From: Candidatus Magasanikiibacteriota bacterium
Lineage (GTDB): Bacteria > Patescibacteriota > Patescibacteriia > Magasanikbacterales > UBA922
Length of the DNA: 64,000 nt
NCBI GenBank assembly: GCA_041674805.1
Contig: JBAYVA010000001.1
Coordinates: 390,612 to 454,611, forward strand
Direction: 5' to 3'
Shown here piece after piece: positions 8,600-64,000 of the stretch. Position 1 is the stretch's first letter, and every line of letters starts with the position of its first letter. The notes below the pieces were generated by a model. The model saw nothing but the letters and a program-made list of their open reading frames with translations. It was not told the DNA's origin and ran no database searches. The translations under genes were made by a program, and so were the position numbers.

Positions 8600-11500
8600 T
8601 TGGTATTATACACACAATATTTAATGCAATCTCTTATGCTAGAAATACCACGTTATTCTCCTTTTGACACTCCCAAAAGTAATGATGAGCTATATATAGA
8701 AATAGAAAATATTCTAAATAATCTAGAAGCAACTCTGGCTATTTTTGAATTGGAACAAGACAAAACCAAAGCCAGACAAGTAGGAATTTTAATTTACGAA
8801 CTAAAAAATCAACAAACTTTAATCAATGCCGAAAATCACAAAAAAGTTGGAAAATTGACTAAGCGAGAAAAAATAGAAAATTTACTTTCACAAGCCAGAG
8901 AGATTTTGCAAGGCAATGAATCATCCCTGTCAAGATTTGATCTAGAAAGAGAAAGTGAAATATCGCACATTCCCCTACCACCCGAAGAACTAGAAGCTAA
9001 ATATTTTAGCAAAGAAGATATTGCCGTTTCAAATGCTCTACTTGCTTTCAACATCACTGAACTTTTTTCAGAAGAAGAATTTGAAACACGAATTATTATT
9101 GATTCGAAACAAACTGGCAAAAATGACAATCACAAAATTCAAGAAGCGGTAGAACTAGTCACAGATTTTTTGATTGATAATCAGACCCTTAATTATTTTT
9201 GTGAAAATGCTGAATTTGCTACCACTCAAACAGCAATCAACATGCCACCAGATTTACTTTGGATAAAAGAAAAGAATCCCGCAGTTTGGCAAGCTATCAA
9301 TACTTTAGTCAAAAGTAAAAAAGGTCCAGAATTTTTGAGACTACTCGCTGGTCAACCGACCCACAATACAGCAGTAGAAGAAACTGATCAATATGATCTC
9401 ATGGCAAAAGAGTCTCTAGATGCTTCTCCCAATATTTTGAGTCTAGCCATAAATATATCAAGACAAAGATTGAAAAGTAGTGCAAGACAAGATTTGAGTG
9501 AAGCTGAAAAAAATGTTTTGGTGAATCTTTATGGTGCAGATTTTCTAAAAGACGCTGAAGAAGAAAGAGCCCGAGATATTATTTTTACACAATTACTTGC
9601 TCAGATTTTGAATGAAGATAAAAATGAAAAAAATAATGAGTCAATAATTCAACTTATTGATATGTTAGAATGGAGAGATATACAAAAAATGTTAAAAAAT
9701 AATGATTTGAAAAATTTTGAAAGTATTCTAAAACGTATAGCAGAATACCTACCAAATATGACAGACGAACAAGTGAAAATGGTGTTAGAAAAAATGAATA
9801 CTATCACAAAAGAAGCATTAGCTGAACCTGATAAAATACAAAAAAGAAAAGATGACGCACAAAAAAGAAAGGAAAAATTAGAACAAGACCTAGAAGAAGC
9901 ACAAAAAAATGGTGATAAAAAAATTCTAATGTTTTTAACATTAGGATTCTTTGGTTCAAGAGAGAGACGAATACCAGCAACTACAGAAAAAATTGAAGAT
10001 GTAGGAATAAAATTTTTAGAAGAAAGAAAAAATTATCAAACATCTCTAAAATTGTTATTCCTTCTATTAAAGCACAACGGGAATATTGCCAAAGAATTAA
10101 CAAAAAAAGAAGATTGGGAAAAAAGAAACAAAGAATTCGCAGATTTTTGTATCCAAATATTATATCTTTACTCTAAATTACAAAAATATCCTTCATATCG
10201 TGAAGATACCAAAGATGGTAATATAAACAATTTTGATGGTTTTGTAACAAGTTATATAAAAGTAACTACTGAATCTAAATTACCTACAGATAAAGAATTA
10301 AATTTAAATGGAGCTTCACTTGTTGGTGCAGATTTCAGAAAAGCAGACTTATCCAAAATAAATTTGGAAGGTGCTGATGTTACAAATGCTAATTTTGAAG
10401 GTGCAGATTTTAGCAAGATGACTAACAAACAAATAGAAGGAGCAAAGTTTAATAGAGAAGATGATAATATTCCTAAGTGGATCAAATATGGTTTAGATGA
10501 AGAAGGAAAGTTTTCAAAACAAAAACTACAAGAAACTATTAGAGAGAAATCTAAAACAGAAACTATAGACTTACAAGATGCTAAACTGATGGGACTAGAT
10601 TTATCAAATTTAAATTTATCAAATGCTAATTTTAGAAACTCAAATTTAAGTAGAGTAATATTTACAAATACAATTTTGATGGGTGCTGACTTTAGAGGTG
10701 CTCATATAGAAAGTTTACAATTAGCAAACACAAATCTAGAAGGTGCCAAATTTGATAAAGAAACCATTAACCCATTTAAAAAAACAAAACTAGCCAACGA
10801 ATCTAACTATAGACCAGAAAGTGTACCGAAATGGATCCAGCAGGCATTAGATACAGAAGGAAAATTTTCAAAAAAAATATTAGCTGATAATATCAAAAAA
10901 GATAAAAAGGGAGAAATAAAATTAAACAATGCAGATCTATCAGGATTATCATTGAATGGCGTAGATTTTTCTGGAAGAGAAATCACTGGTACAAAATTTA
11001 TCGGTACAAATCTAGAAGAATCCAAATGGAATAATTGTATATTAACTAATGTTGATTTTAGTGATGCAAACTTATACGAGGCTGATTTCAGAAGCACAAG
11101 CTTCAAAAATGTTAATCTTGAAGGTGCAAGATTTGAAACAATAAAAATAAAAGATTCAAATAATATTCCACCTTGGATACGATATGGTTTGGATAATCCA
11201 GGACGTTCAGGAAAATATTCCAAAAAAGACTTAATAGAATATATAAAAAGACATAGCACTCTAAATCTGAGAAATGCTGACCTGCCAGGGATTGATTTAA
11301 GTAAATTTGAATTAAATGGTGCATTATTCAGCGGTGCAAATTTAGAAGGAGCAATTTTTACTAATTGTTTATTGAAAAAAACAGAATTTGCATCTGCACA
11401 ATTAGAAAATGCTAGCTTCAGAGGTTCAATTCTAGAAGAATCCGACTTTGCCAATGCAAATTTACGTGGAGCAAATTTTAGTGGTGCTGACTTAAAAGAT

Positions 11501-11659
11501 GTAAAAAACTTAGATGGAGCCTATACCCCCGTACGCGTTGGTATTCAAAGAGAAACTGAATATTTTAATTCAAATTTAGTTGGTGCAAACTTCTCAAATG
11601 CAAAAAATATACCACCACACATCCAAGAACGATTAGACGAAAACGGTATATACCACTAA
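8600..11659 (+). CDS. large modular pentapeptide-repeat protein (1019 aa)
   Basis: C-terminal ~480 aa are dense pentapeptide repeats (ASLVGADFRKADLSKINLEGADVTNANFEGADFSKM...). They are organised in three super-modules that each begin with IP(K/P)WI(K/Q/R)YGLD..GKFSKK.L....I. N-terminal ~560 aa are helical with no recognised domain. Confidence 0.75.
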   Translation: MVLYTQYLMQSLMLEIPRYSPFDTPKSNDELYIEIENILNNLEATLAIFELEQDKTKARQVGILIYELKNQQTLINAENHKKVGKLTKREKIENLLSQAREILQGNESSLSRFDLERESEISHIPLPPEELEAKYFSKEDIAVSNALLAFNITELFSEEEFETRIIIDSKQTGKNDNHKIQEAVELVTDFLIDNQTLNYFCENAEFATTQTAINMPPDLLWIKEKNPAVWQAINTLVKSKKGPEFLRLLAGQPTHNTAVEETDQYDLMAKESLDASPNILSLAINISRQRLKSSARQDLSEAEKNVLVNLYGADFLKDAEEERARDIIFTQLLAQILNEDKNEKNNESIIQLIDMLEWRDIQKMLKNNDLKNFESILKRIAEYLPNMTDEQVKMVLEKMNTITKEALAEPDKIQKRKDDAQKRKEKLEQDLEEAQKNGDKKILMFLTLGFFGSRERRIPATTEKIEDVGIKFLEERKNYQTSLKLLFLLLKHNGNIAKELTKKEDWEKRNKEFADFCIQILYLYSKLQKYPSYREDTKDGNINNFDGFVTSYIKVTTESKLPTDKELNLNGASLVGADFRKADLSKINLEGADVTNANFEGADFSKMTNKQIEGAKFNREDDNIPKWIKYGLDEEGKFSKQKLQETIREKSKTETIDLQDAKLMGLDLSNLNLSNANFRNSNLSRVIFTNTILMGADFRGAHIESLQLANTNLEGAKFDKETINPFKKTKLANESNYRPESVPKWIQQALDTEGKFSKKILADNIKKDKKGEIKLNNADLSGLSLNGVDFSGREITGTKFIGTNLEESKWNNCILTNVDFSDANLYEADFRSTSFKNVNLEGARFETIKIKDSNNIPPWIRYGLDNPGRSGKYSKKDLIEYIKRHSTLNLRNADLPGIDLSKFELNGALFSGANLEGAIFTNCLLKKTEFASAQLENASFRGSILEESDFANANLRGANFSGADLKDVKNLDGAYTPVRVGIQRETEYFNSNLVGANFSNAKNIPPHIQERLDENGIYH

Positions 11660-42787: not shown

Positions 42788-43936
42788 TTATAAACTTAAA
42801 TTATTAACCACTTCCACAATTTGTTTCTTAATTTCCTCAAATTCTTTTTTATCACTCAATCCTAATCTTACTTTAGTATAACCAAAAAACAATTTGTGAA
42901 GTAGTTTAGTTTTTTCTTTTGCAAGTCTTGCTAATTCACCCAAAACATCAATATCACCATATTCAGATAAAATATTTTCTATTGTCTTACTATGATCAAC
43001 GCCATTTTTGTTTGCCATAGCTGAGGCTGATGACATAATGAAATCAAACAAATCACGTGCCTTCTGTTCCAAAAGTGGAACATCTTTTTTATATTGTGTT
43101 TCGGGATCACAAATGTGTACTTGCTTTTCTTTATCAACAATAATATTTGGTAAAATCAATTCACCCCAAGTAACAGGTGGATCAGCTTCGTGCATTCTCT
43201 TTACTTCTCTTGTTATTTTTTTCAAAATATCAAGTAAACCATTTTCATCAATATCTTTAGCATATTCACATTCACCAAAATCTGCAATTTCTTCCCTATT
43301 AGCAAAAAGATCATAAGCATTAACATTTGGTATAAATGGTAAAACCACAACATTTGGTTCAACAATATCCAATACAGGTATTCTACTACGTTCTTCAAAA
43401 ATATCTTTCCAATCTCTTGATTTACATTTTGCCATTCTCGTACCTGTCATTCTTTTCATGAAACTATCTAAACCACGATGAATAAAAGAAGTACTATAAT
43501 TATTTATAACAAAATATTTACTACCATCAGCTAATTCTACTATCTTAGTACGTGTACTAAAATTGGCAACTTTTGAATCGTACTCTGTAGCTGTTTTATT
43601 ACCTCTTATAAGGGCAGGAGCAACAAAACCAACTTCCAACTTGAAAGCAGAAACAACTTCTTCTAATTCCAGTCTCTGTTCTGGAGGTAAAATTATTTTA
43701 CCATTTTTTATAGTATAACCTTGTCTGTTATTTTGATCAGCATTAGCTTTTTCTATTTCATCTTTTGTATTTTTTATTTGTTGTTGTCTTCTTTCAGAAG
43801 CTTCTGGTGTTTCAATTCTATGTTCAACTTCTGGTGCAACAATTTCATCACCAGTAGTTTCTAGTTTTGATCTTTCTGTATCAGGCATTTTAAATTCTTG
43901 ACCTTCTGGTCCTTTCCCTTTTTTTATTTCAGCCAT
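42788..43936 (-). CDS. hypothetical protein with possible protein-kinase-like (PKL) fold
   Basis: Acidic low-complexity N-terminus; ...VTWGELILPNIIVDKEKQVHICDPE loosely resembles the HGD...N / DFx loops of small atypical kinases. Confidence 0.3.
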   Translation of the reverse strand: MAEIKKGKGPEGQEFKMPDTERSKLETTGDEIVAPEVEHRIETPEASERRQQQIKNTKDEIEKANADQNNRQGYTIKNGKIILPPEQRLELEEVVSAFKLEVGFVAPALIRGNKTATEYDSKVANFSTRTKIVELADGSKYFVINNYSTSFIHRGLDSFMKRMTGTRMAKCKSRDWKDIFEERSRIPVLDIVEPNVVVLPFIPNVNAYDLFANREEIADFGECEYAKDIDENGLLDILKKITREVKRMHEADPPVTWGELILPNIIVDKEKQVHICDPETQYKKDVPLLEQKARDLFDFIMSSASAMANKNGVDHSKTIENILSEYGDIDVLGELARLAKEKTKLLHKLFFGYTKVRLGLSDKKEFEEIKKQIVEVVNNLSL

Positions 43937-48928: not shown

Positions 48929-49555
48929 TTATATTCCGTGTCTAAAAAGACTGACCAAAGCAAAACCAACAGACAAACCAAGGATCATATTAGCCAAATT
49001 AAATAAGTAAGGATTTTCGAAAACAAGAGCGATCAAAATCAAACATATTGACAATACCTGCAAAAACATTTTTATTTTACCCCACAAATTTGCCATTCTC
49101 ACAGTTTTGAACTTTACTCTATACAAATAAGCCATACTAATAAAAATAATTTCAATACCCAACACAGCAATACCAAGCCAAAAATTATTCAAATATTTGA
49201 AAACCAAAAGTAAAACCATAGAACCAATGAGCAACTTGTCAGCCAAAGGATCTATCAAAATTCCAAATTTTGTAATTTTGTTTTGTGTGCGAGCCAAAGA
49301 ACCATCTAGAGCATCCGTAAATGCTACTAGTACAAAAGCTACCACACCAATATTATAAAATCCAAACAAAATAAGCAAAAAAACAAAAGGTGTCGCTAAA
49401 ATACGAAAAATACTTATTCTATTTGGAGTCACAGACTTAGGCAAAAAACGCAAAATATAATTCTCCAAAAAATGATCATGAGGATGAATTTCTTCTGCTG
49501 GCAAATAATCAAACAAGTCAACGTTCCTCTCTTTGAAATCCTTGATAAAAGACAT
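48929..49555 (-). CDS. CDP-alcohol phosphatidyltransferase family protein
   Basis: DALDGSLARTQNKITKFGILIDPLADKLL matches D-G-x2-A-R-x8-G-x3-D-x3-D. Confidence 0.8.
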   Translation of the reverse strand: MSFIKDFKERNVDLFDYLPAEEIHPHDHFLENYILRFLPKSVTPNRISIFRILATPFVFLLILFGFYNIGVVAFVLVAFTDALDGSLARTQNKITKFGILIDPLADKLLIGSMVLLLVFKYLNNFWLGIAVLGIEIIFISMAYLYRVKFKTVRMANLWGKIKMFLQVLSICLILIALVFENPYLFNLANMILGLSVGFALVSLFRHGI

Positions 49556-49585
49556 AAATTTGATATAATAGTGAAATTAAAGTCT

Positions 49586-51715
49586 ATGACAAAACTATTT
49601 AAAAAGTATATCACGCTTGGGACCCTTATTACAACTCTGTTGTTCCTCTCTATCTGGTATTACCAAAATCCTATTTTTGGCACTTTAACCTATATTTTAT
49701 ATTTAGTTTTTTTTGGTTACTCTCTTGGCAACTTCTTTATCAAACAGGAAAAACCATTTTGGAAGCTATTTTTTGGTATTATTGGCCTTATGGCTTTTAC
49801 TACCTCCCTATTATCTATCATCTATTGGTTTTATCAGATAGATCAATTCACCATTACTTTAGTCTTTTTATTTACCTCACTAAAAATTGTATGCTTATCT
49901 AGAAAAATGAACTTTACAGATTTGGCTATTTTACAAAAAAATCAACTAACTTTCAAAAAAACAAAAGATTATTTAAAACAAAATATTCTAGGAGTTATAA
50001 TTTTCCTAGGACAAATCTTCATACTAACAATTATATTCCAACATCGTTATGATGAAACAATTATTTCTCCTTGGACACTTTTTAGTAAAAAAATATTTAT
50101 CCTCTTCTTTTTAGTTTCAGCGCTTTTACTATTCTTTTTACAAAAATCAAAATATAAAAAAACCAATCTGCTACTTATCACCTTGCACACTGCCATTATT
50201 TTGAATGTTGCTTTTTTGGTTTTCAAATATGGTTATGGTTTTGATCCACATATTCACGAAGCTACCGAAAAATGGATTAGAGAACATCTCTTCATTACAC
50301 CCAAACAACCTTACTACATTGGACAATATATATGGGTGGTTACTACAAATTTTATTACCAAACTTTCTATTACCAATTTAGATAGAATCCTAGTACCAAT
50401 ATTTGCTTCTTTGGCTATACCACTCAGTCTTTATTTTGCTCTGGTAAAAAATAATTTCAAAAATAAAATATTTCCAGCCTTAGTTTTGATCTCACTTATA
50501 CCACTCAACTTTTTTATTTTTACTACACCAAACAATCTAGCTTTACTTATGTCAATGATTATTGTTTCTTGGATTTGGTACGAAAATCAATATAACAATC
50601 TACATACCAATGTTTTTGGAATTCTAATCAATACACTCAACATTGCTATTCACCCTATTATTGGACTACCTATGTTTGTTATTTATTTATCTTCTATTGT
50701 TTACAAAAAAATAAATAATAATCTCAAAAAAATATTTTATCCATTATATATTTTTATTTTAACATTTACCGTTCCATTAGCTCTTTACCTCAACTCTATT
50801 CTCAACAAAGGATCTTTGATACTAAAAAATACTTTTCTCAATGCCCCAGATTTTTTTGACATTTTTGCCAGACCAGATTATATCTTCATTGAACGTGGTT
50901 CAAGATTATTAAAACTTTTATATTATTATCGAGATATTTTGAAACCACTAATGATAATAATTATTATAATAGGCGTTTTTTTAGCTCTAAAAAAATACAA
51001 AAAAAATATTACCTATTTTTTCATTAGCACTTTTTTTGCTCTCTCTATTTCTTCTTTCCTAATTATTACTTCTGTCCAATTCAAAGATGTCATTTCTTAT
51101 GACCAAAAATTATATGGCACTAGACTACTTGATTTAAGTTTAATTTTATTTTTACCTTTTTTTGTTATTGCGCTTAGAGAAATATTTATCAAAATAAAAC
51201 ACCAAAAAAACTTGCAAATAATTGTCACTATTTTTTTTGCTCTATTGTTTACACTTTCTTGGTTTTTTACTTACCCAACTCACGATAATATTTCAATCTA
51301 CACTGGACAAAATTTGAGGAAAGCTGATGTAATTGCTGTCAAATTTATTGCTGACAGAAATAATAATCAAAAAGATTATATTGTACTCACCAACCAAGCT
51401 GTGGCTACAGCTGCTTTATTGGAATTTGGTTTTGACGGTTATTTAAATACAAAGGAAGGTTTGCAATATTTTTATTCTATTCCAACTGGCGGACCACTTT
51501 ATCAATACTTTAGCAAAATGATTTATGTCAAAACCGAAAGATTGTGGATGGAAGAAGCCATGAAATTTGCCAACGTCAAAAAAGCTTACTTCATCCATAC
51601 TGACTATTGGAGTCCAGCTGTCAAAATTCGTGATGACGCCAAAGTAGATGCAGACAACTGGTGGGAACTAGACAACGGTCGAATTTGGGTCTATGAATAC
51701 CTTTTGAAAAAATAA
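49586..51715 (+). CDS. large polytopic membrane protein with C-terminal soluble domain (putative glycan polymerase/transferase; family unresolved)
   Basis: Start set at the ATG at 49586 (MTKLFKKY...), because the track start 49472 overlaps the convergent upstream gene. More than 12 TM helices; no STT3 WWDYG motif. Confidence 0.45.
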   Translation: MTKLFKKYITLGTLITTLLFLSIWYYQNPIFGTLTYILYLVFFGYSLGNFFIKQEKPFWKLFFGIIGLMAFTTSLLSIIYWFYQIDQFTITLVFLFTSLKIVCLSRKMNFTDLAILQKNQLTFKKTKDYLKQNILGVIIFLGQIFILTIIFQHRYDETIISPWTLFSKKIFILFFLVSALLLFFLQKSKYKKTNLLLITLHTAIILNVAFLVFKYGYGFDPHIHEATEKWIREHLFITPKQPYYIGQYIWVVTTNFITKLSITNLDRILVPIFASLAIPLSLYFALVKNNFKNKIFPALVLISLIPLNFFIFTTPNNLALLMSMIIVSWIWYENQYNNLHTNVFGILINTLNIAIHPIIGLPMFVIYLSSIVYKKINNNLKKIFYPLYIFILTFTVPLALYLNSILNKGSLILKNTFLNAPDFFDIFARPDYIFIERGSRLLKLLYYYRDILKPLMIIIIIIGVFLALKKYKKNITYFFISTFFALSISSFLIITSVQFKDVISYDQKLYGTRLLDLSLILFLPFFVIALREIFIKIKHQKNLQIIVTIFFALLFTLSWFFTYPTHDNISIYTGQNLRKADVIAVKFIADRNNNQKDYIVLTNQAVATAALLEFGFDGYLNTKEGLQYFYSIPTGGPLYQYFSKMIYVKTERLWMEEAMKFANVKKAYFIHTDYWSPAVKIRDDAKVDADNWWELDNGRIWVYEYLLKK

Positions 51716-55429: not shown

Positions 55430-55783
55430 ATGCAAACATGCAAGGATTTGAAAGTCTGTCAAAAATCGATAAAATTAGTTACTTCAATTTATAAATTGAC
55501 AGAATCTTTCCCTGACATAGAAAAATTTGGATTGATAAGTCAGATGAGGAGAGCTTCAGTATCAATACCATCAAACATAGCTGAAGGTTTTGCCAGAAGA
55601 AACAAAAAAGAAAATGCTCATTTTATCAGCATTTCTTATGCCTCCGGCACAGAGTTAGATACTCAACTTGTTATAGCAAAAGAGTTAAATTTCATTTCTG
55701 AACAAAATTTAAAAGAAGTTGCATCACAACTCGAAGAAATTTTAAAGATGCTTTATTCTTACCGCGAATACCTATACAAATAA
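55430..55783 (+). CDS. four-helix-bundle protein (23S rRNA intervening-sequence protein family, TIGR02436-like)
   Basis: DLKVCQKSIKLVTSIYKLTESFPDIEKFGLISQMRRASVSIPSNIAEGFARR...FISISYASGTELDTQLVIAKEL. Confidence 0.7.
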   Translation: MQTCKDLKVCQKSIKLVTSIYKLTESFPDIEKFGLISQMRRASVSIPSNIAEGFARRNKKENAHFISISYASGTELDTQLVIAKELNFISEQNLKEVASQLEEILKMLYSYREYLYK

Positions 55784-56942: not shown

Positions 56943-57470
56943 CTAGTCCTCCACAAGTAGCATTTTGTCTCCTATCTTCAGATTATGCTCTTTTACCCAG
57001 CCAGATGGTAACTCCAAAACCAAATCAGAATCTACTCTAGGTGTGTATTTTTTATACTCATATTCCTCTTTATTTGGCTCTATAGGCACATTTGGGGCAA
57101 TATCTACTACTTCTCCCTTATAAAACCAAACTATATCTATAGGGAAGCTCATGTCCCTCATTACAAATGAATGTTTGGAAGGAAACGAAAAAGGGAAAAT
57201 CATACCATCATAAGGATTAATACTATCCCTACCACCCAAACCTTTTTGTTGTCTATAAATACTGTCAGCAATCAATACTTCCAATTTTTGATCTTTCAAA
57301 GAAACTATGGTTTCTGTCCAATAATATCTTTGCCAAAAAAATAAAAAAATGGCTAAACCTAAAAAAATAAGGATAAAATAAAATTTGAAGTTATTATTTG
57401 TTTTCATAATTGCAATGTATGAATTAAAAATCCCAGACTTGTCCTGATACAAAAATTTTTGGGATTCCAC
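56943..57470 (-). CDS. DUF192 (COG1430) domain protein, membrane-anchored
   Basis: ...MRDMSFPIDIVWFYKGEVVDIA...LVLELPSGW. The start may be the internal Met (MKTNNNF...). Confidence 0.55.
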   Translation of the reverse strand: MESQKFLYQDKSGIFNSYIAIMKTNNNFKFYFILIFLGLAIFLFFWQRYYWTETIVSLKDQKLEVLIADSIYRQQKGLGGRDSINPYDGMIFPFSFPSKHSFVMRDMSFPIDIVWFYKGEVVDIAPNVPIEPNKEEYEYKKYTPRVDSDLVLELPSGWVKEHNLKIGDKMLLVED

Positions 57471-57489: not shown

Positions 57490-58593
57490 TTACTTGACCT
57501 CTTTAGGTAGATTTCTCATTCCACTTTTCTTTTTACCAAACCAAATAACTAATAATATCATTATAACAAAAAGCAAGATTAAAGCCAAAAATTTTTGACT
57601 ACTTTGCAAAAATAAAGCTGACAAACCAAACAACAAAGAAATTGCATAAAACAATAATACTGCTTGTTTTTGACTAAGTCCTGTATCCAACAAACGAAAA
57701 TGTAAATGTTCTCTATCTCCCAAATAAATAGGATGACCTTTTTTGAAACGAGCCCAAATAACTCTAGCTACATCCAAAATAGGTATAGCCATAACCAATA
57801 AAGTAATAGCAATTTTACTACCTGAAATAATAGCCAATGTACCAAGTAAAAAACCAGTCAATAAACTTCCTCCTTCACCCAAAAATATTTTGGCAGGAAA
57901 CCAATTCCAAACTAAAAAACCCAAAACCGCAGCTGCCAAAATAATAGACAAAAGAGCTACATCTGGCTGAAACCAATTCGTTTGTAAAGAAAAAAAGAAC
58001 AAAACACAAGCACCTATAAAAACTATTCCAGAAACCAAACCATCCAGCCCATCCAAGAATTTGGTAGTAAACATCATTCCCATAAGCCAAAAGAAAACTA
58101 AAACATCTGCCAAAACTACAAGTTTACCAAAATTACCAAAATTTATTTGCCAAAAATCTAAATGAATAACTCCACCAAACGGATTGGAAATAATATGTGG
58201 ACCAATACCCGAAAAAATAATAGTCATAGCAGCTAAAACTGGAAATAAAATTTGTATCTTTGGTTTTAAAACATATTTGTCATCCAAAATACCACCAACA
58301 ACCAGAAACAAAGATCCCAAAAATAATCCTAGCAAATTTCTAAATACAATATCATAATAAAAATTATCACCAAAAATCCAAGCCAAAAATACTGACAAGA
58401 AAAAACTAAAAAAAATAGCCAAACCACCACCTAAAGCAATCGGCCTTTTGTGAATTTTTCTTTTTTCTTTACTTACTTTATCAATAATACCAAATTTTCT
58501 CATAAACATAGCAACCAAAAAAGTCACTATTACAGAAACTACGAAGGTAAAACTAAAATAAAACAAATATATCATCATAATTTTAATAATCAA
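57490..58593 (-). CDS. polyprenyl-phosphate N-acetylhexosamine-1-phosphate transferase (WecA/TagO, MraY-like GT4 family)
   Basis: KFLDGLDGLVSG (DGxDGL), multiple TM helices, ...IYLGDREHLHFRLL. Confidence 0.7.
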   Translation of the reverse strand: MIIKIMMIYLFYFSFTFVVSVIVTFLVAMFMRKFGIIDKVSKEKRKIHKRPIALGGGLAIFFSFFLSVFLAWIFGDNFYYDIVFRNLLGLFLGSLFLVVGGILDDKYVLKPKIQILFPVLAAMTIIFSGIGPHIISNPFGGVIHLDFWQINFGNFGKLVVLADVLVFFWLMGMMFTTKFLDGLDGLVSGIVFIGACVLFFFSLQTNWFQPDVALLSIILAAAVLGFLVWNWFPAKIFLGEGGSLLTGFLLGTLAIISGSKIAITLLVMAIPILDVARVIWARFKKGHPIYLGDREHLHFRLLDTGLSQKQAVLLFYAISLLFGLSALFLQSSQKFLALILLFVIMILLVIWFGKKKSGMRNLPKEVK

Positions 58594-58618: not shown

Positions 58619-59512
58619 CTAAACATCAATATTACACACAGCAAAATTGTTTTCTTTAAGATAATCATCACTAATCTCATACAATACAGGTGCAAAATTA
58701 GTAGTAACTTCTTCTGTTTTTTGCAATTTACCTTCCACAAAAACTTCTCTATAAATTTCATTATAACGAAAATAATTCAAACCTTTTTTTACAAACAGAT
58801 GATTCTTTTCTACAATATGAAAATTTTCCAAAACTTTGCCATTAGACAAAATCTGTCCTTTCAAATGGTCATCTGTCAACCAAATTTTTATTTGCAAAGA
58901 AAAATTAGAAACATTTTTTACTTTTAAATCTAAATAATTATAAAAAATAGTAGCACCACTACCAAATGGCAATGTTCGACCAGAATCAGGAAAAACATCT
59001 TTGGAATGATGATGACGCTCCATAATTTCTGTAGGAGCATGCAAAAAAATCCAATACAAAAAATTTGATAATTGACACATACCACCACCCAAACCTTCTA
59101 TAACATTACCATTGGAAATAAGCATACCATCAACATAACCATCCTTATATTTTGGTTGACCTACCACTTGCCAAAATGAAAAAATTTTCCCTGGTTTTAT
59201 CACAATGCCATCCAATTTTTTGATAGCTTGTTTAAGATTTTGAATTTTTTGTTCTTGTAATTTTGGATCACTTACACCTAATTTACGACGTAACAAAGAT
59301 TGATGTCTAGCTACAACATGAGAAAAGTAAGTATCATTTTTTTGATATGTAATATTCAAATTAAAAAAATTTTGCAAATTTCTAAAAAAATGACGTACCA
59401 AAATAATAAAACTCTTCAAAAAAGGATACTTTCGAGAAAGAGCTACTCTAGTAGGACTTTCATATGTTTTTATATATAACAAAATTTTTTCTTTTAATCT
59501 TATGTCTATCAT
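58619..59512 (-). CDS. VanW-family protein
   Basis: GGGMCQLSNFLYWIFLHAP matches the VanW core GGG.CQ.S..LY. Confidence 0.6.
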   Translation of the reverse strand: MIDIRLKEKILLYIKTYESPTRVALSRKYPFLKSFIILVRHFFRNLQNFFNLNITYQKNDTYFSHVVARHQSLLRRKLGVSDPKLQEQKIQNLKQAIKKLDGIVIKPGKIFSFWQVVGQPKYKDGYVDGMLISNGNVIEGLGGGMCQLSNFLYWIFLHAPTEIMERHHHSKDVFPDSGRTLPFGSGATIFYNYLDLKVKNVSNFSLQIKIWLTDDHLKGQILSNGKVLENFHIVEKNHLFVKKGLNYFRYNEIYREVFVEGKLQKTEEVTTNFAPVLYEISDDYLKENNFAVCNIDV

Positions 59513-59622: not shown

Positions 59623-62379
59623 CTAATTTCTTTCTATATGAATTTGCAGAGCTTCTCCCAATATAATTTTATCACGTCTTTGTAATTTTCCTTGCAAAAT
59701 AAACTCTGCCAATCTATTTTCTATCCTATCCTGAATTGCACGACGCATAGGACGTGCTCCAAAATCTGGATCAAAACCAACATCAACCAAAGCTTCCAAA
59801 GATTCATCAGTGACTACCAATTCTACTCCCCTATTTTCCAAATCTTTGGCCACACGTTTCAACATATAAGCTGCAATCACTTTTATTTCTTCTCTATTCA
59901 AAGCTTTGAATAAAACTATACCATCAAAACGATTCAAAAATTCTGGACGATAATATTGCATCAGCTCACCATGCAACAAATTTTCTTTTATTCTATCTAA
60001 ATCTACACCCATTTTCATCTGAGCTTGTACATAACTTGTACCAGCATTTGAAGTAGCAATAATAATAGTATTGGTAAAATCTATCACACGACCAACACTA
60101 TCTGTCAAACGTCCATCATCAAAAACTTGCAAAAACAAATTCAAAACATTTCTGTCAGCCTTTTCAAGTTCATCTAAAAGCAAAAGTGAAAAAGGATTTT
60201 GTCTGACAGCTTCTGTCAAAAGACCAGTACCTTGTTGACCAGGTTGACCAATAAGACGATAAATACTACTTGTATCTTGAAATTCACTCATATCCAATCT
60301 AATCATTCTTTCTTCACCACCAAAATATACTTCTGCAATAGTTTTGGCCAATTCAGTCTTACCAACACCTGTTGGACCCAAAAACAAAAAGTTAGCAATT
60401 GGACGTTTTTGTGAACGCATCTCGGCTCTAGCTCTACGCAAAGCATTGGCTACTAACTCTACTGCAATATCTTGACCAACCACACGTTTATGCATTTCTT
60501 GCTCTAAACGCATCAATTTTGATGATTCATTTTCTGTAATACTAGAAACAGGCACACCAGTTTTATTGGCCACCACTTCACCAACTTCTTCAGCTGAAAC
60601 CAAAATATTATCTCCTCTTTTTGATCTTGCAAAACTACCCACTTCAGACAAAAGAGATATAGCTCCAGCAGGCATATTTTGATCAAAGAAAAATTTATCA
60701 GCCAAAACTACACATTTTTCAATAGCATCATAAGAAAAAAATATTTTATTATGATATTCTACTTCTCCAGCTTTTGATTGTAATACACGAATACTTTGTT
60801 CTTGATTCATTTCTTTGACACTAACTTTGGTAAAAACCGTACCAATTTCACTATTTACAATATGACGGTTATAACCTTCTGGCAAAGCTGTTGCAAACAT
60901 TGTAATATTACCTCCTGACAAATATTCAGCCAAAGTTTCAGATACATCTAGACTCTCACCTTGAGTTGCAGCACTGCCTGTCAAATCAGATAAATTATTT
61001 ATAAACAAAATAATATTTTTGGCACGAGAAACTTCATTCATAATTCTTATCAATCTTTCTTGAGCTCCAGACACCGTAGTACCTGCCAACAAAGATGATG
61101 TAGAAATTTGGACAAATCTTTTATCCAATAATTTTTTAGGAGCTTTGCCAGATATCATTTTTTGGACAATACCTTCTATAATGGACATTTTACCAACACC
61201 ATGTTCACCTACTAAAATTACATTATCACGACCAGCTTCTACAATATTAAAAATCTCTTCTATCTCTTTGTCACGAGCAACACATTGTGACAAATGTCCA
61301 TACTTAGCATAAATCGTCAAATCTTTACTATAATTATTCAAATATGGCGTAGCCACAGCAGTCATCGCTTTGTCCATACCATATTTACTTACACCACTAG
61401 CCGCTTTTCTAAATTTTTTGTATTCATCATATAAATATTCTTTCATACGTACCCACTCTACAACATTGTTTAATTTTTGATTTTCTACTTCCAAATCATA
61501 CAACATTTCTTGTAAAATTTCTGATTCACGAACAGTAGCTAACAAAATTTCAGTAGTACGAATTTGACTATCTTTTATTTCATAAGTAATTTCAAAAGAA
61601 TTAAAGATAATTTGCCAAAATTCTTCACCCAGTTTAGTTTCACTTTCTTTATTATTTTTTGGTAATGATTGCAACAAAGAATTAATATGTGCTTTTACCG
61701 AACGTATAGAAATATTCAAACGTACAAAAATACCAATAATTTCACTAGTATCTAGCAAAGTATAAAAAACATGTAAAGATGTAATTTCACTATGTTTATA
61801 ATTTCTAGCCAACAAATAACTTTTTTCCAAAACAGTTTTAGCATTGGCTGTCAAAAATTGACTAATATCAAATTTGTGTTTATGTGAAATTTTTTTTATT
61901 TCTTCCCAATTGTTAGCAAACAAACTATCTTGCAATGTTTTCTTATCCAAAAAATTATAATCTATTTCTTCTTTTGGCACATTGTTTGCTATCAAACGAT
62001 AAAACAAATAAGCAAAAGATACCGTAGAAAACCAGAAAAAAAGTCTAGCACCAGTAATATCATTACTCCAAAATTGTAAAGTAAAGATATTATCAAAACT
62101 TTTATTTACTTTGTAGACTTCAAACAAAAATAAGGCAAAAAAACTAAAACTAAACACAAGAGAACCAATAATTCTTACAATATCCAAAATTTGTCTAGCT
62201 TGCTTTTGTTTTATATTATAAAATGTAATAGATTGTCCAAAATAAACAAAAAGATTATTAAAAAAATAACCAACATGCAATCTTTTGCAATTTTGACAAG
62301 GATGAAAATGAATATAACCATCGCCATGACACGTATCACAAATATCCAAAGACAATTTTTTATTTTTTACAAAAAGCAT
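59623..62379 (-). CDS. membrane-anchored ClpA/ClpC-like AAA+ unfoldase with N-terminal zinc ribbon and degenerate first ATPase domain
   Basis: N-terminus CDTCHGDGY...CQNC plus 2-3 TM helices; then two Clp_N repeats; D1 has GEHGVGKMS (instead of GEPGVGKT) and IILFINNLS (instead of IILFIDELH); D2 is canonical (FLFLGPTGVGKTELAK, LLLLDELEKA, sensor/Arg-finger GARPMRR). Confidence 0.75.
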   Translation of the reverse strand: MLFVKNKKLSLDICDTCHGDGYIHFHPCQNCKRLHVGYFFNNLFVYFGQSITFYNIKQKQARQILDIVRIIGSLVFSFSFFALFLFEVYKVNKSFDNIFTLQFWSNDITGARLFFWFSTVSFAYLFYRLIANNVPKEEIDYNFLDKKTLQDSLFANNWEEIKKISHKHKFDISQFLTANAKTVLEKSYLLARNYKHSEITSLHVFYTLLDTSEIIGIFVRLNISIRSVKAHINSLLQSLPKNNKESETKLGEEFWQIIFNSFEITYEIKDSQIRTTEILLATVRESEILQEMLYDLEVENQKLNNVVEWVRMKEYLYDEYKKFRKAASGVSKYGMDKAMTAVATPYLNNYSKDLTIYAKYGHLSQCVARDKEIEEIFNIVEAGRDNVILVGEHGVGKMSIIEGIVQKMISGKAPKKLLDKRFVQISTSSLLAGTTVSGAQERLIRIMNEVSRAKNIILFINNLSDLTGSAATQGESLDVSETLAEYLSGGNITMFATALPEGYNRHIVNSEIGTVFTKVSVKEMNQEQSIRVLQSKAGEVEYHNKIFFSYDAIEKCVVLADKFFFDQNMPAGAISLLSEVGSFARSKRGDNILVSAEEVGEVVANKTGVPVSSITENESSKLMRLEQEMHKRVVGQDIAVELVANALRRARAEMRSQKRPIANFLFLGPTGVGKTELAKTIAEVYFGGEERMIRLDMSEFQDTSSIYRLIGQPGQQGTGLLTEAVRQNPFSLLLLDELEKADRNVLNLFLQVFDDGRLTDSVGRVIDFTNTIIIATSNAGTSYVQAQMKMGVDLDRIKENLLHGELMQYYRPEFLNRFDGIVLFKALNREEIKVIAAYMLKRVAKDLENRGVELVVTDESLEALVDVGFDPDFGARPMRRAIQDRIENRLAEFILQGKLQRRDKIILGEALQIHIERN

Positions 62380-62387
62380 AAGATTAT

Positions 62388-62765
62388 CTAAAAAGAAGAA
62401 TTACTAACAAATAATCCCAAAGAATCCAAAATCATATATATAACAAAAATTGGTAATATTATCCAAACAAAAAATAATCCTATTACAATGATTAACCAAA
62501 TAAAAAGTGCAATAGTTCTAAAAATTACATTAAAAAAACGCATGATGAAACTCACAAAACGACCTTGAAAATCATACTGACCAAACATTGGTACAAAAAT
62601 ATTTTTGAGCCAAAGACCAGGAGCCATCATAGCATTGACATCTTTTACGAGAGAAACACAAAACATCAAAGCTTTCCTACTACCTTCGCTATACCACCAG
62701 ATAGGAAAATAAAAAATGTCGACAATCAATTCCAAAAACATTTTTTGTAGCAAAATAATAAACAT
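62388..62765 (-). CDS. small integral membrane protein (125 aa)
   Basis: Three hydrophobic helices; unrecognised. Confidence 0.4.
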   Translation of the reverse strand: MFIILLQKMFLELIVDIFYFPIWWYSEGSRKALMFCVSLVKDVNAMMAPGLWLKNIFVPMFGQYDFQGRFVSFIMRFFNVIFRTIALFIWLIIVIGLFFVWIILPIFVIYMILDSLGLFVSNSSF

Positions 62766-62876: not shown

Positions 62877-63221
62877 TTATCTTTTGGCGACAGAACTATC
62901 AAAAATATCTAAATATGCCACATTTGAAACAATTACTAAATCAGTTTCAGAAATTCTAGCTTGTAAATTTTGCATTGATTTATATTTGGCTACTTGTACA
63001 TCCATTTTTCTATTTTCATATTCCAAATTTGCTACTTGTTTTTCTAAGTCACTAATTACATAACCTTTTGTAGAAACTGAAGTAGTTTTCAAAATATACA
63101 AAACACCAAATACCAAAATAAAAGCAAACAAAGAAATACGAAAAGACGTACTAAAAAATAGTTTGTTAAGTACCTCTTTTTTTTGTCTGAGTGTTTGTTT
63201 TTTTTCTAAATAAGAATTCAT
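62877..63221 (-). CDS. FtsL/DivIC-like septum-formation initiator
   Basis: Single TM plus coiled coil (ISDLEKQVANLEYENRKMDVQVAKYKSMQNLQARI), immediately downstream of rsmH as in dcw clusters. Confidence 0.5.
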   Translation of the reverse strand: MNSYLEKKQTLRQKKEVLNKLFFSTSFRISLFAFILVFGVLYILKTTSVSTKGYVISDLEKQVANLEYENRKMDVQVAKYKSMQNLQARISETDLVIVSNVAYLDIFDSSVAKR

Positions 63222-63263: not shown

Positions 63264-64000
63264 TTAAATTTTTTCAACTACTCTCAACTTAGCACTTCTC
63301 GATCTAGGATTACTTTTTGCTTCATCGTCACTAGCAATAATTGGTTTTTTAGTTATTATTCTAATTGTTTTATTATTTTGTGATTTGAAATAATGCTTGA
63401 CCAAACCATCTTCTATAGAATGAAAAGTAATCACAACCAACCTTCCTCCGCTTGCCAACACATCTATAGCTTGTGGCAAAACTCTTTCAATTACCCCAAG
63501 TTCATCATTTACAAAAATACGTAAAGCTTGAAATACTTTGGTTGCTGGATGCAAACCACCTACCCAAGGTATTCTTTGTTCAGCTTGATCAGCTTCAATT
63601 GGAATTTTCAATTTTTTTCTATAAACATCCAAAATTATTCCTACCAAATCACCTACTGTTTCAATTGTATAATCATTTCTTTTTTCTACGATGGCTCTGG
63701 CTATTTCTTTACTCAATTTTTCTTCACCATATTTACGAAATATTTCTTCTAATTCTTCTTCAGACTTAGTATCAAGTATTTCAGCAGCACTACAATGTAC
63801 ATACAAGTTTTTGCCATCCGGAGCTTCTGGAAGTTTTTCTTTGCCAGGAACACATTTCAAATACGTATCATAACGCATATCCAAAGGTTCTTCTGTTTTC
63901 AAAAAACTAAATCCTCTACCTCTTTCTTCAAACTGTGGACTAGACCAACCATAATCCATCAATATTCCATTTACATTTTCAAATTTATTTTCTTCTACAA
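63264..64000 (-). CDS. rsmH: 16S rRNA (cytosine1402-N4)-methyltransferase RsmH/MraW (C-terminal ~245 codons; N-terminus outside the window)
   Basis: ...LDMRYD..., ...IPWVGGLHPATKVFQALRIFVNDEL..., ...ITFHSIEDGLVKHYF..., ...NPRSRSAKLRVVEK. The Met at 63962 is internal; the reading frame stays open to the window end. Confidence 0.8.
   Translation of the reverse strand, partial: VEENKFENVNGILMDYGWSSPQFEERGRGFSFLKTEEPLDMRYDTYLKCVPGKEKLPEAPDGKNLYVHCSAAEILDTKSEEELEEIFRKYGEEKLSKEIARAIVEKRNDYTIETVGDLVGIILDVYRKKLKIPIEADQAEQRIPWVGGLHPATKVFQALRIFVNDELGVIERVLPQAIDVLASGGRLVVITFHSIEDGLVKHYFKSQNNKTIRIITKKPIIASDDEAKSNPRSRSAKLRVVEKI

What the first reader, a model, noticed from the sequence alone, without database searches (positions are those of the whole stretch)
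59623..62379. Membrane-anchored zinc-ribbon ClpA/C-like unfoldase with naturally inactivated D1 ATPase
Before the Clp_N repeats there is a CxxC...CxxC ribbon plus 2-3 TM helices, which is unusual for ClpA/ClpC. The first AAA+ module has Walker A GEHGVGKMS (Thr to Met) and Walker B IILFINNLS (DE to NN). D2 is fully canonical. A D1 that binds but cannot hydrolyse ATP resembles engineered substrate-trap mutants. It sits two genes from ftsL-rsmH, so a role in divisome or membrane-protein quality control is conceivable.
Basis: seen in the sequence. Interest (0 to 1): 0.55.

Follow-up and report, generated by a model that had tools for sequence, protein, structure and literature searches.

The report
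Membrane-tethered Clp-like ATPase without pore loops
This is a real, conserved gene of tiny uncultured bacteria (Patescibacteria) encoding a membrane-anchored relative of the Clp/Hsp100 protein-unfolding motors that has lost the parts those motors use to grip proteins and dock a protease, and that travels with a small unknown membrane protein, so it probably works in a different, still untested way.

Summary
It is not a ClpA/ClpC-type unfoldase. D1 also lacks the KYR pore loop and both arginine fingers. D2 keeps every catalytic motif, but its GYVG pore loop is replaced by a shorter, conserved GQPGQQG loop. The ClpP-docking loop and the M-domain are absent. These states hold in the 120 listed homologues and are among the protein's most conserved segments. 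The anchor module matches only 211 of 1.84 billion representative proteins; every named one checked is Patescibacteria. An unannotated 125-aa helical-hairpin membrane protein lies directly upstream, and in 69 of 70 species loci a full-length Clp-like gene follows it. Orthologues of about 600 aa that lost D2 (4 of 4) also lack it. Divergent relatives keep GAPPGY/F, so the pore-loop loss is derived. Linkage to rsmH/ftsL is clade-specific; a WecA-like GT4 gene downstream is family-wide. Best reading: a Patescibacteria-specific, membrane-tethered, ClpP-independent Clp/Hsp100 derivative that works with the hairpin partner as a non-threading ATP-driven remodeller. The anatomy is shown; the function is inferred.

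The parts
59623..62379 (-). Clp/Hsp100-derived membrane-tethered ATPase, 918 aa (identical to P0001, NCBI 'MAG: AAA family ATPase [Candidatus Magasanikbacteria bacterium]')
62269..62346 (-). Zinc hairpin, residues 12-37: C14-D-T-C17-H-G-D-G ... C28-Q-N-C31. A DnaJ cysteine-rich / anti-TRAP-type CxxCxGxG zinc centre, predicted cytoplasmic
   Evidence: Profile versus PDB: DnaJ CR domain 1exk E=0.002, anti-TRAP E=0.04-0.1. AF2 beta-strands at 12-46
62110..62184 (-). TM helix 1 (about residues 66-90), preceded by a conserved cationic juxtamembrane segment F-x-Y-F-G-E-P-L-T-x-Y-H-I-x-L-R-K-A-R-R
61987..62043 (-). TM helix 2 (about residues 113-131), following a short outside loop with a conserved F103-W104 motif
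61390..61854 (-). Clp N-terminal domain (residues about 176-330)
   Evidence: Pfam Clp_N 190-236 is weak. The ClpA model aligns from residue 178. The AF2 helical domain has pLDDT about 90
60595..61344 (-). D1 pseudo-ATPase module (residues 346-595). Walker A GEHGVGKMS (391-399), pore loop TVS instead of KYR (435-437), Walker B IILFINNLS (456-464), Arg fingers RR replaced by TV (about 514-515)
   Evidence: Conserved at 0.71-0.75 column identity
59626..60594 (-). D2 ATPase module plus D2-small domain (residues 596-918). Walker A GPTGVGKTE, Walker B LLLLDELEKA, sensor 1 TSNAG, Arg finger FLNRFD and sensor 2 GARPMRR are all canonical. There is no ClpP-docking tripeptide
60214..60258 (-). Shortened D2 pore loop RLIGQPGQQGTGLLT (residues 708-722). 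It replaces GAPPGYVG through a 4-residue deletion and has no aromatic residue, yet it is 0.89 conserved
62388..62765 (-). Small conserved partner gene, 125 aa. It ends 8 bp before the ATPase start. The product is a helical-hairpin membrane protein with invariant PxWW and NxFVPMxGQxDxQGR motifs and no annotation in any library
57490..58593 (-). GT4 polyprenyl-phosphate sugar-phosphate transferase (WecA/MraY superfamily, best match WecA, below all cut-offs). It is the conserved downstream neighbour of the ATPase across the family
   Evidence: Downstream of the ATPase in the window and in all 11 loci examined individually and in 48 of 65 scanned loci
58619..59512 (-). VanW-domain protein inserted between the ATPase and GT4. 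It is not part of the conserved block (present in 3 of 80 loci)
62877..63221 (-). FtsL-like small bitopic protein (tentative: just below the Pfam and NCBIfam cut-offs)
63264..63962 (-). rsmH (MraW methylase). Only model positions 132-309 of 309 are matched, so the true N-terminus lies upstream of this ORF start or is divergent

Best explanation
The gene encodes a Patescibacteria-specific derivative of the class-I Clp/Hsp100 ATPases. It is tethered to the cytoplasmic face of the membrane by an N-terminal TM hairpin and carries a DnaJ-type zinc hairpin and a Clp N-domain.

D1 is a conserved pseudo-ATPase ring: it has no catalytic Glu, no Mg2+ ligands, no Arg fingers and no pore-loop Tyr. It most likely serves as a structural or assembly scaffold, as NSF D2 and Pex1/Pex6 D1 do. 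D2 is the only competent ATPase. In this clade its substrate-gripping GYVG loop has been replaced by a short, conserved Gly/Gln loop, and the protein has no ClpP-docking loop and no M-domain.

It is therefore not a Clp protease subunit and probably not a processive threading unfoldase. It works together with the small helical-hairpin membrane protein encoded immediately upstream. That protein is kept wherever D2 is kept and lost wherever D2 is lost. The proposed mechanism is that D2 ATP hydrolysis drives a conformational (non-threading, Torsin-like) remodelling or switching of membrane-proximal partners. These could be the hairpin protein, or clients bound by the N-domain and zinc hairpin, in the context of cell-envelope biogenesis (the WecA-like GT4 neighbour, and the dcw genes in Magasanikbacteria).

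Shown: domain anatomy, motif states and their conservation, taxonomic restriction, and gene linkage. Inferred: hexamer formation, topology, partner interaction, non-threading mechanism and cellular role.
For: - Anatomy. The AF2 model has pLDDT 82.6, and Foldseek's top hits are ClpC, ClpC1 and ClpB.
- D1 degeneration is conserved. Walker A is GK[M/V/L/R] and Walker B is [N/K/D/H]-N in the 120 listed homologues. KYR becomes TVS and RR becomes TV. No 'DE' occurs in any of the divergent representatives examined.
- D2 catalytic motifs are invariant or nearly invariant: K674, T675, D736, E737, N778, R817 and GARPMRR.
- The D2 pore-loop deletion is conserved at 0.89 column identity and the D1 replacement loop at 0.91, against 0.59 for the N-domain. 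That indicates purifying selection on new states, not decay.
- No ClpP loop and no M-domain. ClpA and ClpB equivalog scores are about half their cut-offs.
- Family restriction: the N-terminal profile hits 211 of 1.84e9 representative proteins. All names returned are Patescibacteria lineages or unassigned.
- Partner: the small gene lies 3-8 bp upstream (overlapping by 11 bp in L004) in 7 of 7 D2-bearing loci, even though the genes further upstream differ. In 69 of 70 species-representative loci with room, a full-length Clp-like gene follows the small gene. The small gene is absent, by six-frame hmmsearch, from 4 of 4 loci of D2-less orthologues that occupy the same syntenic slot.
- The partner is modelled as one long helical hairpin with pLDDT 95.8 and hydrophobic termini.
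Against: - No experiment or interaction prediction links the two proteins. Co-occurrence with D2 rests on only four D2-less loci.
- Synteny in this region is generally conserved: RecR-YbaB-DnaB on the opposite strand is kept too. Adjacency to GT4 may therefore reflect low rearrangement rather than shared function.
- Divergent family members retain GAPPGY or GAPPGF D2 pore loops (P0265, P0213, P0269). The ancestral machine probably did thread substrates, and a non-aromatic loop might still translocate weakly.
- The existence of D2-less orthologues suggests the core function may not need any ATPase motor.
- Whether the genome encodes ClpP elsewhere could not be checked.
Confidence: 0.55

Rival explanations
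1. It is a genuine ClpC/ClpA-type unfoldase subunit of a ClpP protease, merely membrane-anchored. This is what public annotation says ('ATP-dependent Clp protease ATP-binding subunit ClpC/ClpA').
For: The best sequence and fold matches are ClpC, ClpA and ClpB. Several sources name homologues ClpC or ClpA. The N-domain/D1/D2 order without an M-domain resembles ClpA.
Against: - The ClpP-docking loop carrying [LIV]-G-[FL] is deleted, and the corresponding residues are variable (conservation 0.60).
- Both pore-loop tyrosines are absent.
- Equivalog scores are about half their cut-offs.
- No clpP is present in the window.
Confidence: 0.04
2. It is a ClpP-independent threading machine: a membrane-protein extractase or membrane-proximal disaggregase in the manner of Msp1, the FtsH ATPase or ClpB. 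D2 alone would pull substrates through the pore using the modified loop.
For: - D2 has all catalytic motifs.
- Divergent relatives keep GAPPGY/F loops, so the family ancestrally had a threading-type D2.
- Two D2-less orthologues sit behind dnaJ, with hsp20/dnaK nearby in one, which hints at a proteostasis context.
- The N-domain and a DnaJ-type zinc hairpin are client-binding modules in other chaperones (established knowledge of DnaJ and ClpC).
Against: - In ClpB, Hsp104 and ClpA the D2 pore-loop Tyr is required for translocation (established knowledge). Here it is deleted and the replacement is Gly/Gln-rich.
- D1 contributes no pore loop either.
- There is no M-domain for DnaK coupling.
- D2-less orthologues cannot thread at all, yet they persist.
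Confidence: 0.22
3. The essential function resides in the N-terminal half (zinc hairpin, TM hairpin, Clp N-domain and pseudo-D1), acting as a membrane scaffold or adaptor pseudoenzyme. One example would be organising or regulating the adjacent WecA-like GT4. D2 plus the hairpin protein would then be an accessory, dispensable regulatory module.
For: - Orthologues of about 600 aa in the same syntenic slot keep exactly this half, ending at the D1/D2 boundary (profile position about 612 of 915).
- GT4 follows the gene in all 12 contexts examined individually (the window plus 11 loci).
- D1 is well conserved despite being catalytically dead.
Against: - D2 is the most conserved part of the full-length proteins (0.84), which is not what one expects of an accessory module.
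- The D2-less forms are only 20-25% identical and may have changed function.
- GT4 adjacency may be passive synteny.
Confidence: 0.15
4. It is a dedicated divisome component, because it is encoded between ftsL and the rest of a dcw-type cluster.
For: mraZ-rsmH-ftsL-like lies directly upstream in the window and in three Magasanikbacteria loci. rsmH is upstream in 65 of 71 and the FtsL-like gene in 51 of 71 scanned loci.
Against: - In divergent members the block (hairpin gene, ATPase, GT4) sits behind TGT, the ATP synthase operon or UvrD, with no dcw genes.
- The FtsL assignment is below cut-offs.
- GT4 is WecA-like rather than MraY.
Confidence: 0.1
5. It is a decaying gene or pseudogene, so the substitutions are noise.
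For: Many catalytic residues are lost in D1.
Against: - The ORF is intact.
- The 120 listed homologues are all 879-937 aa.
- The degenerate motifs are themselves conserved at 0.82-0.91.
- D2 has dozens of invariant residues.
Confidence: 0.01

Closest known systems
ClpC / ClpA (class-I Clp/Hsp100 unfoldases, ClpP partners)
   Same: Clp N-domain, two stacked AAA+ modules and a D2-small domain. They are the best sequence and structure matches (31-40% identity over aligned regions). The lack of an M-domain resembles ClpA.
   Different: This protein has an N-terminal zinc hairpin and a TM hairpin. Its D1 is catalytically dead and lacks KYR and the Arg fingers. Its D2 GYVG loop is deleted. It has no [LIV]-G-[FL] ClpP loop. 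It scores at about half the equivalog cut-offs.
ClpB / Hsp104 disaggregases
   Same: ClpP-independent. D2 and D2-small are the strongest Pfam and NCBIfam matches (AAA_2, ClpB_D2-small).
   Different: No coiled-coil M-domain, so no DnaK coupling by the known route. No pore-loop tyrosines. D1 is inactive. The protein is membrane-anchored.
ClpE (and ClpX) with an N-terminal zinc finger
   Same: A Cys4 zinc module at the extreme N-terminus of a Clp ATPase.
   Different: Here the motif is CxxCxGxG, of DnaJ-CR / anti-TRAP type, not the ClpX/ClpE C4 ZBD. It is followed by two TM helices. ClpE has a ClpP loop and active pore loops.
Torsin ATPases with their transmembrane activators LAP1/LULL1
   Same: This is a works-like analogy only. 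Torsins have a Clp/Hsp100 D2-type AAA+ module, act at a membrane, lack aromatic pore-loop residues, and depend functionally on a membrane-anchored partner protein (PMC5425593, PMC4999309, listed but not read; the Torsin properties stated here are from general knowledge). There is a weak Pfam Torsin hit at 619-686.
   Different: Torsins are eukaryotic, ER-luminal and single-ring. They lack their own Arg finger, which the partner supplies. This protein keeps its D2 Arg finger, has a second (dead) ring, and its partner is a simple helical hairpin, not an AAA-like fold.
Type-II AAA+ proteins with one degenerate ring (NSF D2, Pex1/Pex6 D1)
   Same: One ring is catalytically inactive and conserved, presumably as an assembly scaffold, while the other ring is the motor.
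   Different: Those machines retain aromatic pore loops in the active ring and thread substrates. They belong to a different AAA+ clade.
FtsH and Msp1/ATAD1 (membrane-anchored AAA+ machines)
   Same: An N-terminal TM anchor places a hexameric AAA+ ring at the cytoplasmic membrane face.
   Different: FtsH carries an M41 protease domain and an aromatic pore loop. Msp1 is single-ring with essential aromatic pore loops. Neither is Clp/Hsp100-type.

Membership tests
ClpA/ClpC (ClpP-partner class-I unfoldase) | Clp N-terminal domain followed by two AAA+ modules | tested here: met
   The ClpA model TIGR02639 aligns in one stretch, 178-904 to 3-729 of 734. Pfam hits: Clp_N, AAA_lid_9, AAA_2, ClpB_D2-small.
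ClpA/ClpC (ClpP-partner class-I unfoldase) | Score above the curated equivalog cut-off | tested here: not met
   ClpA 485 bits against a cut-off of 993; PRK11034 338 against 1350.
ClpA/ClpC (ClpP-partner class-I unfoldase) | ClpP-docking loop with [LIV]-G-[FL] in D2 | tested here: not met
   There is a 7-residue gap opposite the ClpC RFAGFGG loop. No conserved hydrophobic-Gly-hydrophobic tripeptide exists in the family.
ClpA/ClpC (ClpP-partner class-I unfoldase) | Functional D1 Walker A GK[T/S] and Walker B hhhhDE | tested here: not met
   GKM and NN; the second Walker B position is Asn in 96% of alignment A3.
ClpA/ClpC (ClpP-partner class-I unfoldase) | Aromatic pore loops (D1 KYR, D2 GYVG) | tested here: not met
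   TVS in D1 and GQP----GQQG in D2.
ClpB/Hsp104 | Long coiled-coil M-domain inserted in D1 | tested here: not met
   ClpB models match in two stretches with the M-domain skipped. About 30 ClpC M-domain residues have no counterpart. AF2 shows no long coiled coil between 571 and 632.
ClpB/Hsp104 | Score above the equivalog cut-off | tested here: not met
   TIGR03346 540 bits against a cut-off of 1232.
Clp/Hsp100 superfamily (broad) | D2 AAA_2 module plus ClpB_D2-small with a full catalytic motif set | tested here: met
   AAA_2 E=3.5e-48 and D2-small E=1.8e-23. Walker A/B, sensor 1, Arg finger and sensor 2 are invariant or nearly invariant.
ClpE | ClpX-type C4 zinc-binding domain, ClpP loop, soluble protein | tested here: not met
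   The zinc motif matches DnaJ-CR / anti-TRAP rather than ClpX ZBD. Two TM helices are present. There is no ClpP loop.
DnaJ cysteine-rich zinc centre (CxxCxGxG) | Paired CxxCxGxG / CxxC repeats forming one Zn site | tested here: inconclusive
   The first repeat is an exact CxxCxGxG and the second is CxxC. The profile match to DnaJ 1exk is E=0.002. Metal binding is not testable here. The Cys are absent in 28 of 120 close homologues.
Torsin | Single D2-like AAA+ ring lacking its own Arg finger; ER-luminal; activated by the LAP1/LULL1 Arg finger | tested here: not met
   The D2 Arg finger is present (FLNRFD, R817 invariant). The protein has two rings and is bacterial. The Torsin Pfam hit is below its cut-off (22 vs 27 bits). 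The resemblance is functional only.
FtsH | AAA module followed by an M41 zinc metalloprotease domain | tested here: not met
   No Peptidase_M41 hit; the C-terminus is ClpB_D2-small.

The most novel reading that the evidence does not exclude
The hairpin protein and the Clp-like ATPase form a previously unrecognised two-component, non-threading AAA+ membrane machine confined to Patescibacteria, a bacterial counterpart in logic to Torsin-LAP1. ATP hydrolysis in a pore-loop-less D2 would be transmitted through a rigid pseudo-D1/N-domain to the TM hairpin and its small partner. That would switch or remodel envelope-biogenesis or division complexes. The family would also record stepwise motor reduction: a GAPPGY loop, then loop deletion, then complete loss of D2 together with the partner.
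Probability: 0.2. Interest if true: 0.85.

Novelty: new variant of a known kind. Interest (0 to 1): 0.6.

Why it matters
Clp/Hsp100 motors are textbook threading machines. Their pore-loop tyrosines and, for ClpA/C/E/X, the ClpP-docking loop define how they work. This is a conserved lineage with several unusual features:
- It is membrane-tethered.
- It has turned D1 into a pseudo-ATPase.
- It has deleted the D2 pore-loop tyrosine while keeping D2 catalytically intact.
- It is genetically coupled to an unannotated hairpin membrane protein found in at least 574 species-level genomes.
- In some branches it has shed the motor and the partner together.

That offers a natural series for asking what a Clp ring can do without threading. 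It also points to an uncharacterised, widespread Patescibacteria membrane module. Practically, public annotations of these proteins as 'ATP-dependent Clp protease ATP-binding subunit ClpC/ClpA' are probably misleading for metabolic or proteostasis reconstructions of CPR genomes.

Tried and rejected
- PHROGs, Pfam and NCBIfam found nothing for the small protein or the N-terminal module.
- A profile of the small protein against PDB sequences gave only E=1.4 noise.
- Foldseek of the small-protein model against PDB gave no hit with E<1. The best matches were generic helical hairpins, including PspA/Vipp1/ESCRT-III at E=5-9 and probability 0.14-0.25. I treat these as non-significant and reject an ESCRT-III/PspA assignment.
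- The afdb50 fold library was unavailable.
- Five literature searches found no description of a membrane-anchored or pore-loop-less Clp/Hsp100 in Patescibacteria. One further search failed on term syntax.
- MraY identity for the GT4 neighbour is rejected: mraY scores 45 bits against a cut-off of 192, and WecA is the better match at 90 bits.
- VanW as part of the system is rejected: it is present in 3 of 80 loci.


Full report
**1. The observation**

The ORF at 59623-62379 on the minus strand is real and encodes 918 aa. It is identical to a database protein named 'MAG: AAA family ATPase [Candidatus Magasanikbacteria bacterium]' on a 743,922-bp contig. The window is about 30% G+C and 89% coding, as expected for a Patescibacteria (CPR) genome.

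- C14-D-T-C17-H-G-D-G and C28-Q-N-C31 are present.
- There are two hydrophobic segments, 63-92 and 113-131.
- The alignment to S. aureus ClpC shows D1 Walker A GEHGVGKMS against GEPGVGKTA, and Walker B ILFINNLS against ILFIDELH.
- An FtsL-like gene and rsmH lie two and three genes upstream.

The N-terminal extension is not a start-codon artefact. The 120 listed homologues at 53-74% identity are 879-937 aa long, and most cover 100% of the query.

**2.

Beyond Walker A and B, D1 has also lost the KYR pore loop (now T-V-S) and the two arginine fingers (RR replaced by T-V).

'D2 is fully canonical' is only partly right. These D2 motifs are invariant or nearly so: Walker A (GPTGVGKTE), Walker B (LLDELEKA), sensor 1 (TSNAG), the Arg finger (FLNRFD) and sensor 2 (GARPMRR). 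The D2 pore loop is different. GAPPGYVG is replaced by GQP----GQQG, a four-residue deletion that removes the tyrosine.

The ClpP-docking loop is deleted. There is a 7-residue gap opposite ClpC's RFAGFGG, and the family has no conserved [LIV]-G-[FL]. There is no M-domain: the ClpB models match in two pieces, about 30 ClpC M-domain residues have no counterpart, and AF2 shows no coiled coil. The protein reaches only about half the curated cut-offs for ClpA (485 of 993 bits) and ClpB (540 of 1232 bits). No clpP lies in the window.

**3. These are fixed states, not decay**

In a 54-sequence family alignment, mean column identity by region is:

| Region | Column identity |
|---|---|
| D1 | 0.71-0.75 |
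| N-domain | 0.59 |
| D2 (large domain) | 0.84 |
| D1 replacement loop LLAGTTVSGAQER | 0.91 |
| D2 replacement loop RLIGQPGQQGTGLLT | 0.89 |
| Walker B second-position Asn | 0.96 |

The P-loop glycines are invariant and the Walker A Lys is 93% conserved. D1 is therefore a conserved pseudo-ATPase.

Whether D1 still binds nucleotide cannot be decided from sequence. The P-loop scaffold is kept, but both Mg2+ ligands and both Arg fingers are gone. The 'binds but cannot hydrolyse, like a trap mutant' reading is unsupported, because trap mutants rely on intact pore loops.

**4. The N-terminal module**

AF2, using the family alignment, gives a confident model with mean pLDDT 82.6:
- a beta-rich hairpin at 12-46;
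- a long helix at 53-92 (a cationic juxtamembrane part, then TM1);
- short helices in a roughly 20-residue outside loop carrying a conserved F-W;
- TM2 at 110-131;
- a poorly conserved linker;
- the Clp N-domain (176-330), D1 and D2.

Foldseek places the body closest to ClpC, ClpC1 and ClpB.

With two TM helices and a cytoplasmic ATPase, the zinc hairpin must also be cytoplasmic. Positive charges flank TM1 on the N-terminal side. This topology is an inference. A profile of residues 1-175 matches the DnaJ cysteine-rich domain best (1exk, E=0.002), then anti-TRAP (E=0.04-0.1). The 'zinc ribbon' is therefore more precisely a single DnaJ-type CxxCxGxG zinc centre, although these E-values are only suggestive.

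The zinc hairpin is accessory. 28 of 120 close homologues lack the full pair of CxxC motifs but keep the TM hairpin region. Nearly all of the divergent family representatives examined that include the N-terminus have it.

**5. Family and distribution**

An exhaustive profile search with the N-terminal module found only 211 hits among 1.84 billion representative proteins. The hits fall into three groups:
- fragments;
- Clp-like proteins of about 880-960 aa;
- a distinct set of about 600 aa.

The names recovered are Magasanikbacteria, Falkowbacteria, Parcubacteria group and Patescibacteria group, or unassigned 'bacterium'.

Across the divergent representatives examined:
- None has a D1 Walker B 'DE' or a KYR loop.
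- The D2 pore loop varies. It is canonical GAPPGY in P0265, GAPPGF in P0213 and P0269, long but non-aromatic in several, and shortened by 4-6 residues in the window's clade and many others.
- Two early-diverging members keep the D1 RRF Arg fingers.

D1 inactivation is therefore family-wide and old, while the pore-loop deletion is a derived loss.

**6. A linked partner gene**

The 125-aa ORF at 62388-62765 ends 8 bp before the ATPase start. It has no Pfam, NCBIfam, PHROG or PDB-sequence match. It is nonetheless highly conserved, with invariant PxWW and W..N.FVPM.GQ.D..GR..S..MR motifs. It has 3,099 homologue clusters, and every listed hit is unnamed or called 'hypothetical' or 'uncharacterized'. 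At least 574 GTDB species genomes encode it.

AF2 models it at pLDDT 95.8 as one long helical hairpin (helices 2-47 and 66-123). The invariant loop sits at one tip and hydrophobic segments at the other end. Fold search found nothing significant.

Linkage evidence:
- The small gene directly precedes the ATPase in 7 of 7 D2-bearing loci examined individually. Three of these have unrelated upstream genes: TGT, the ATP synthase operon and UvrD.
- In the 80 best species-representative loci, 69 of 70 with at least 3 kb downstream have a full-length Clp-like gene right after it. L064 is the single exception.

**7. D2-less orthologues**

The proteins of about 600 aa align to profile positions about 6-612 of 915. 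They comprise the anchor, N-domain and D1, and stop at the D1/D2 boundary. In four loci they occupy the same syntenic slot, directly before GT4 (with rplU and RecR-YbaB-DnaB beyond wherever the contig extends that far). GT4 is the next gene, so D2 is truly absent. None of these loci contains the hairpin gene, by six-frame hmmsearch at E up to 10. Two of them follow dnaJ, with hsp20 and dnaK nearby in one.

The pattern of D2 and hairpin present together or absent together is the best available clue that the hairpin protein works with the D2 motor. It rests on four loci only.

**8. Neighbourhood**

The conserved block is hairpin gene, ATPase, GT4, (DUF192), rplU.

The GT4 protein is WecA/MraY-superfamily. 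Its best match is WecA (90 bits against a cut-off of 326), and MraY is much weaker (45 against 192). Its DREHLHF motif resembles the WecA/TagO DRxHxHH motif (from memory, not tested). I therefore do not call it MraY.

mraZ-rsmH-ftsL-like lies upstream in Magasanikbacteria-type loci (rsmH in 65 of 71) but not in divergent members. The dcw link is clade-specific. VanW, which sits between the ATPase and GT4 in this window, occurs in only 3 of 80 loci. Because RecR-YbaB-DnaB on the other strand is also syntenic, adjacency to GT4 alone is weak functional evidence.

**9. Mechanism**

My best explanation (confidence about 0.55 overall) has two parts with different support.
- High confidence (about 0.9): the identity and negative claims. 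It is not a ClpP partner, D1 is a pseudo-ATPase, and D2 is the sole ATPase without an aromatic pore loop.
- Lower confidence (about 0.4): the positive mechanism. It is a membrane-tethered, ClpP-independent Clp/Hsp100 derivative in which the dead D1 ring is a scaffold. The N-domain and zinc hairpin are membrane-proximal binding modules. D2 hydrolysis drives conformational rather than threading work on, or together with, the hairpin partner. This is analogous in logic to Torsin with LAP1/LULL1, which also combine a D2-type AAA+ lacking aromatic pore loops with a membrane partner (from general knowledge; reviews PMC5425593 and PMC4999309 were listed but not read).

Rivals:
- a ClpP-independent threading extractase or disaggregase (0.22), favoured by the GAPPGY/F loops of divergent relatives;
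- a scaffold function residing in the N-terminal half (0.15), favoured by the D2-less orthologues;
- a dedicated divisome role (0.10);
- a true ClpC/ClpA protease subunit (0.04);
- a decaying gene (0.01).

**10. Novelty**

The protein belongs to the Clp/Hsp100 superfamily in the broad sense. It fails every feature that defines ClpA, ClpC, ClpB or ClpE. Five literature searches found no description of a membrane-anchored or pore-loop-less Clp/Hsp100, or of the hairpin family.

I rate it a new variant of a known kind. The notable features are:
- the TM and DnaJ-type zinc anchor;
- loss of pore-loop aromatics from both rings while the D2 active site stays intact;
- an obligate-looking small partner;
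- a natural reduction series ending in loss of the motor.

Public names such as 'ATP-dependent Clp protease ATP-binding subunit ClpC' are likely misannotations.

Interest is 0.6. The finding is surprising to AAA+ specialists and testable in vitro, but the function remains inferred and the organisms are largely uncultured.

Noticed in passing
window 61345-61389 (-), residues 331-345 of the ATPase: The linker between the N-domain and D1 (KYGMDKAMTAVATPY) is one of the most conserved stretches of the protein: 0.90 column identity, with G334, D336, A338, T340, A343, T344 and P345 invariant. AF2 nevertheless predicts it with pLDDT below 50. A conserved disordered segment like this could be a binding or regulatory site.
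   Followed up: partly
L005 5744-8896 and L090 3029-6619: In two of four loci, the D2-less ~600-aa orthologue lies just downstream of dnaJ. In L005, hsp20 and dnaK are a few genes further up; in L090 a signal peptidase S26 gene intervenes. This hints at a proteostasis context for the reduced form.
   Followed up: partly
window 58619-59512 (-): A VanW-domain protein is inserted between the ATPase and GT4 in this genome only. It occurs in 3 of 80 related loci, so this looks like a recent local insertion into an otherwise fixed gene order.
   Followed up: yes
L064 5974-9445: This is the single exception among 70 loci. The hairpin gene is present (145 bits), but the 3.1 kb downstream carries unrelated ORFs (220, 127 and 285 aa) and no Clp-like gene.
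   Followed up: partly
window 55430-55783 (+): A 117-aa '23S rRNA-intervening sequence protein' / bAvd-like four-helix-bundle gene sits between ybaB and recR. The same insertion is seen in L001 and L090 but not in L002, L004, L005, L006, L007 or L008.
   Followed up: no
window 8600-11659 (+): A 1019-aa protein whose C-terminal part is packed with pentapeptide repeats (Pfam E=1e-51). The first roughly 790 residues have no family match.
   Followed up: no
window 49472-51715 (+), 5252-6544 (-), 42788-43936 (-): Three large ORFs (747, 430 and 382 aa) have no Pfam match at E<=1e-5. They sit among glycosyltransferase and sugar-nucleotide genes (GT1, GT2, PMT_2, GDP-mannose dehydratase-like, NTP transferase), which suggests an envelope glycan locus with unknown components.
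   Followed up: no
L019, L021, L023, L034-L039 and others (titles): Many loci carrying the Patescibacteria-specific hairpin and Clp-like pair are deposited under the title 'uncultured Gammaproteobacteria bacterium'. One of them is a 1.23-Mb chromosome, OZ246405.1. These titles look like placeholder or erroneous taxonomy.
   Followed up: no
window 56943-57470 (-): The DUF192 protein downstream of GT4 has an N-terminal hydrophobic segment. It is part of the conserved block in most D2-bearing loci but is missing in L007 and in the four D2-less loci.
   Followed up: partly
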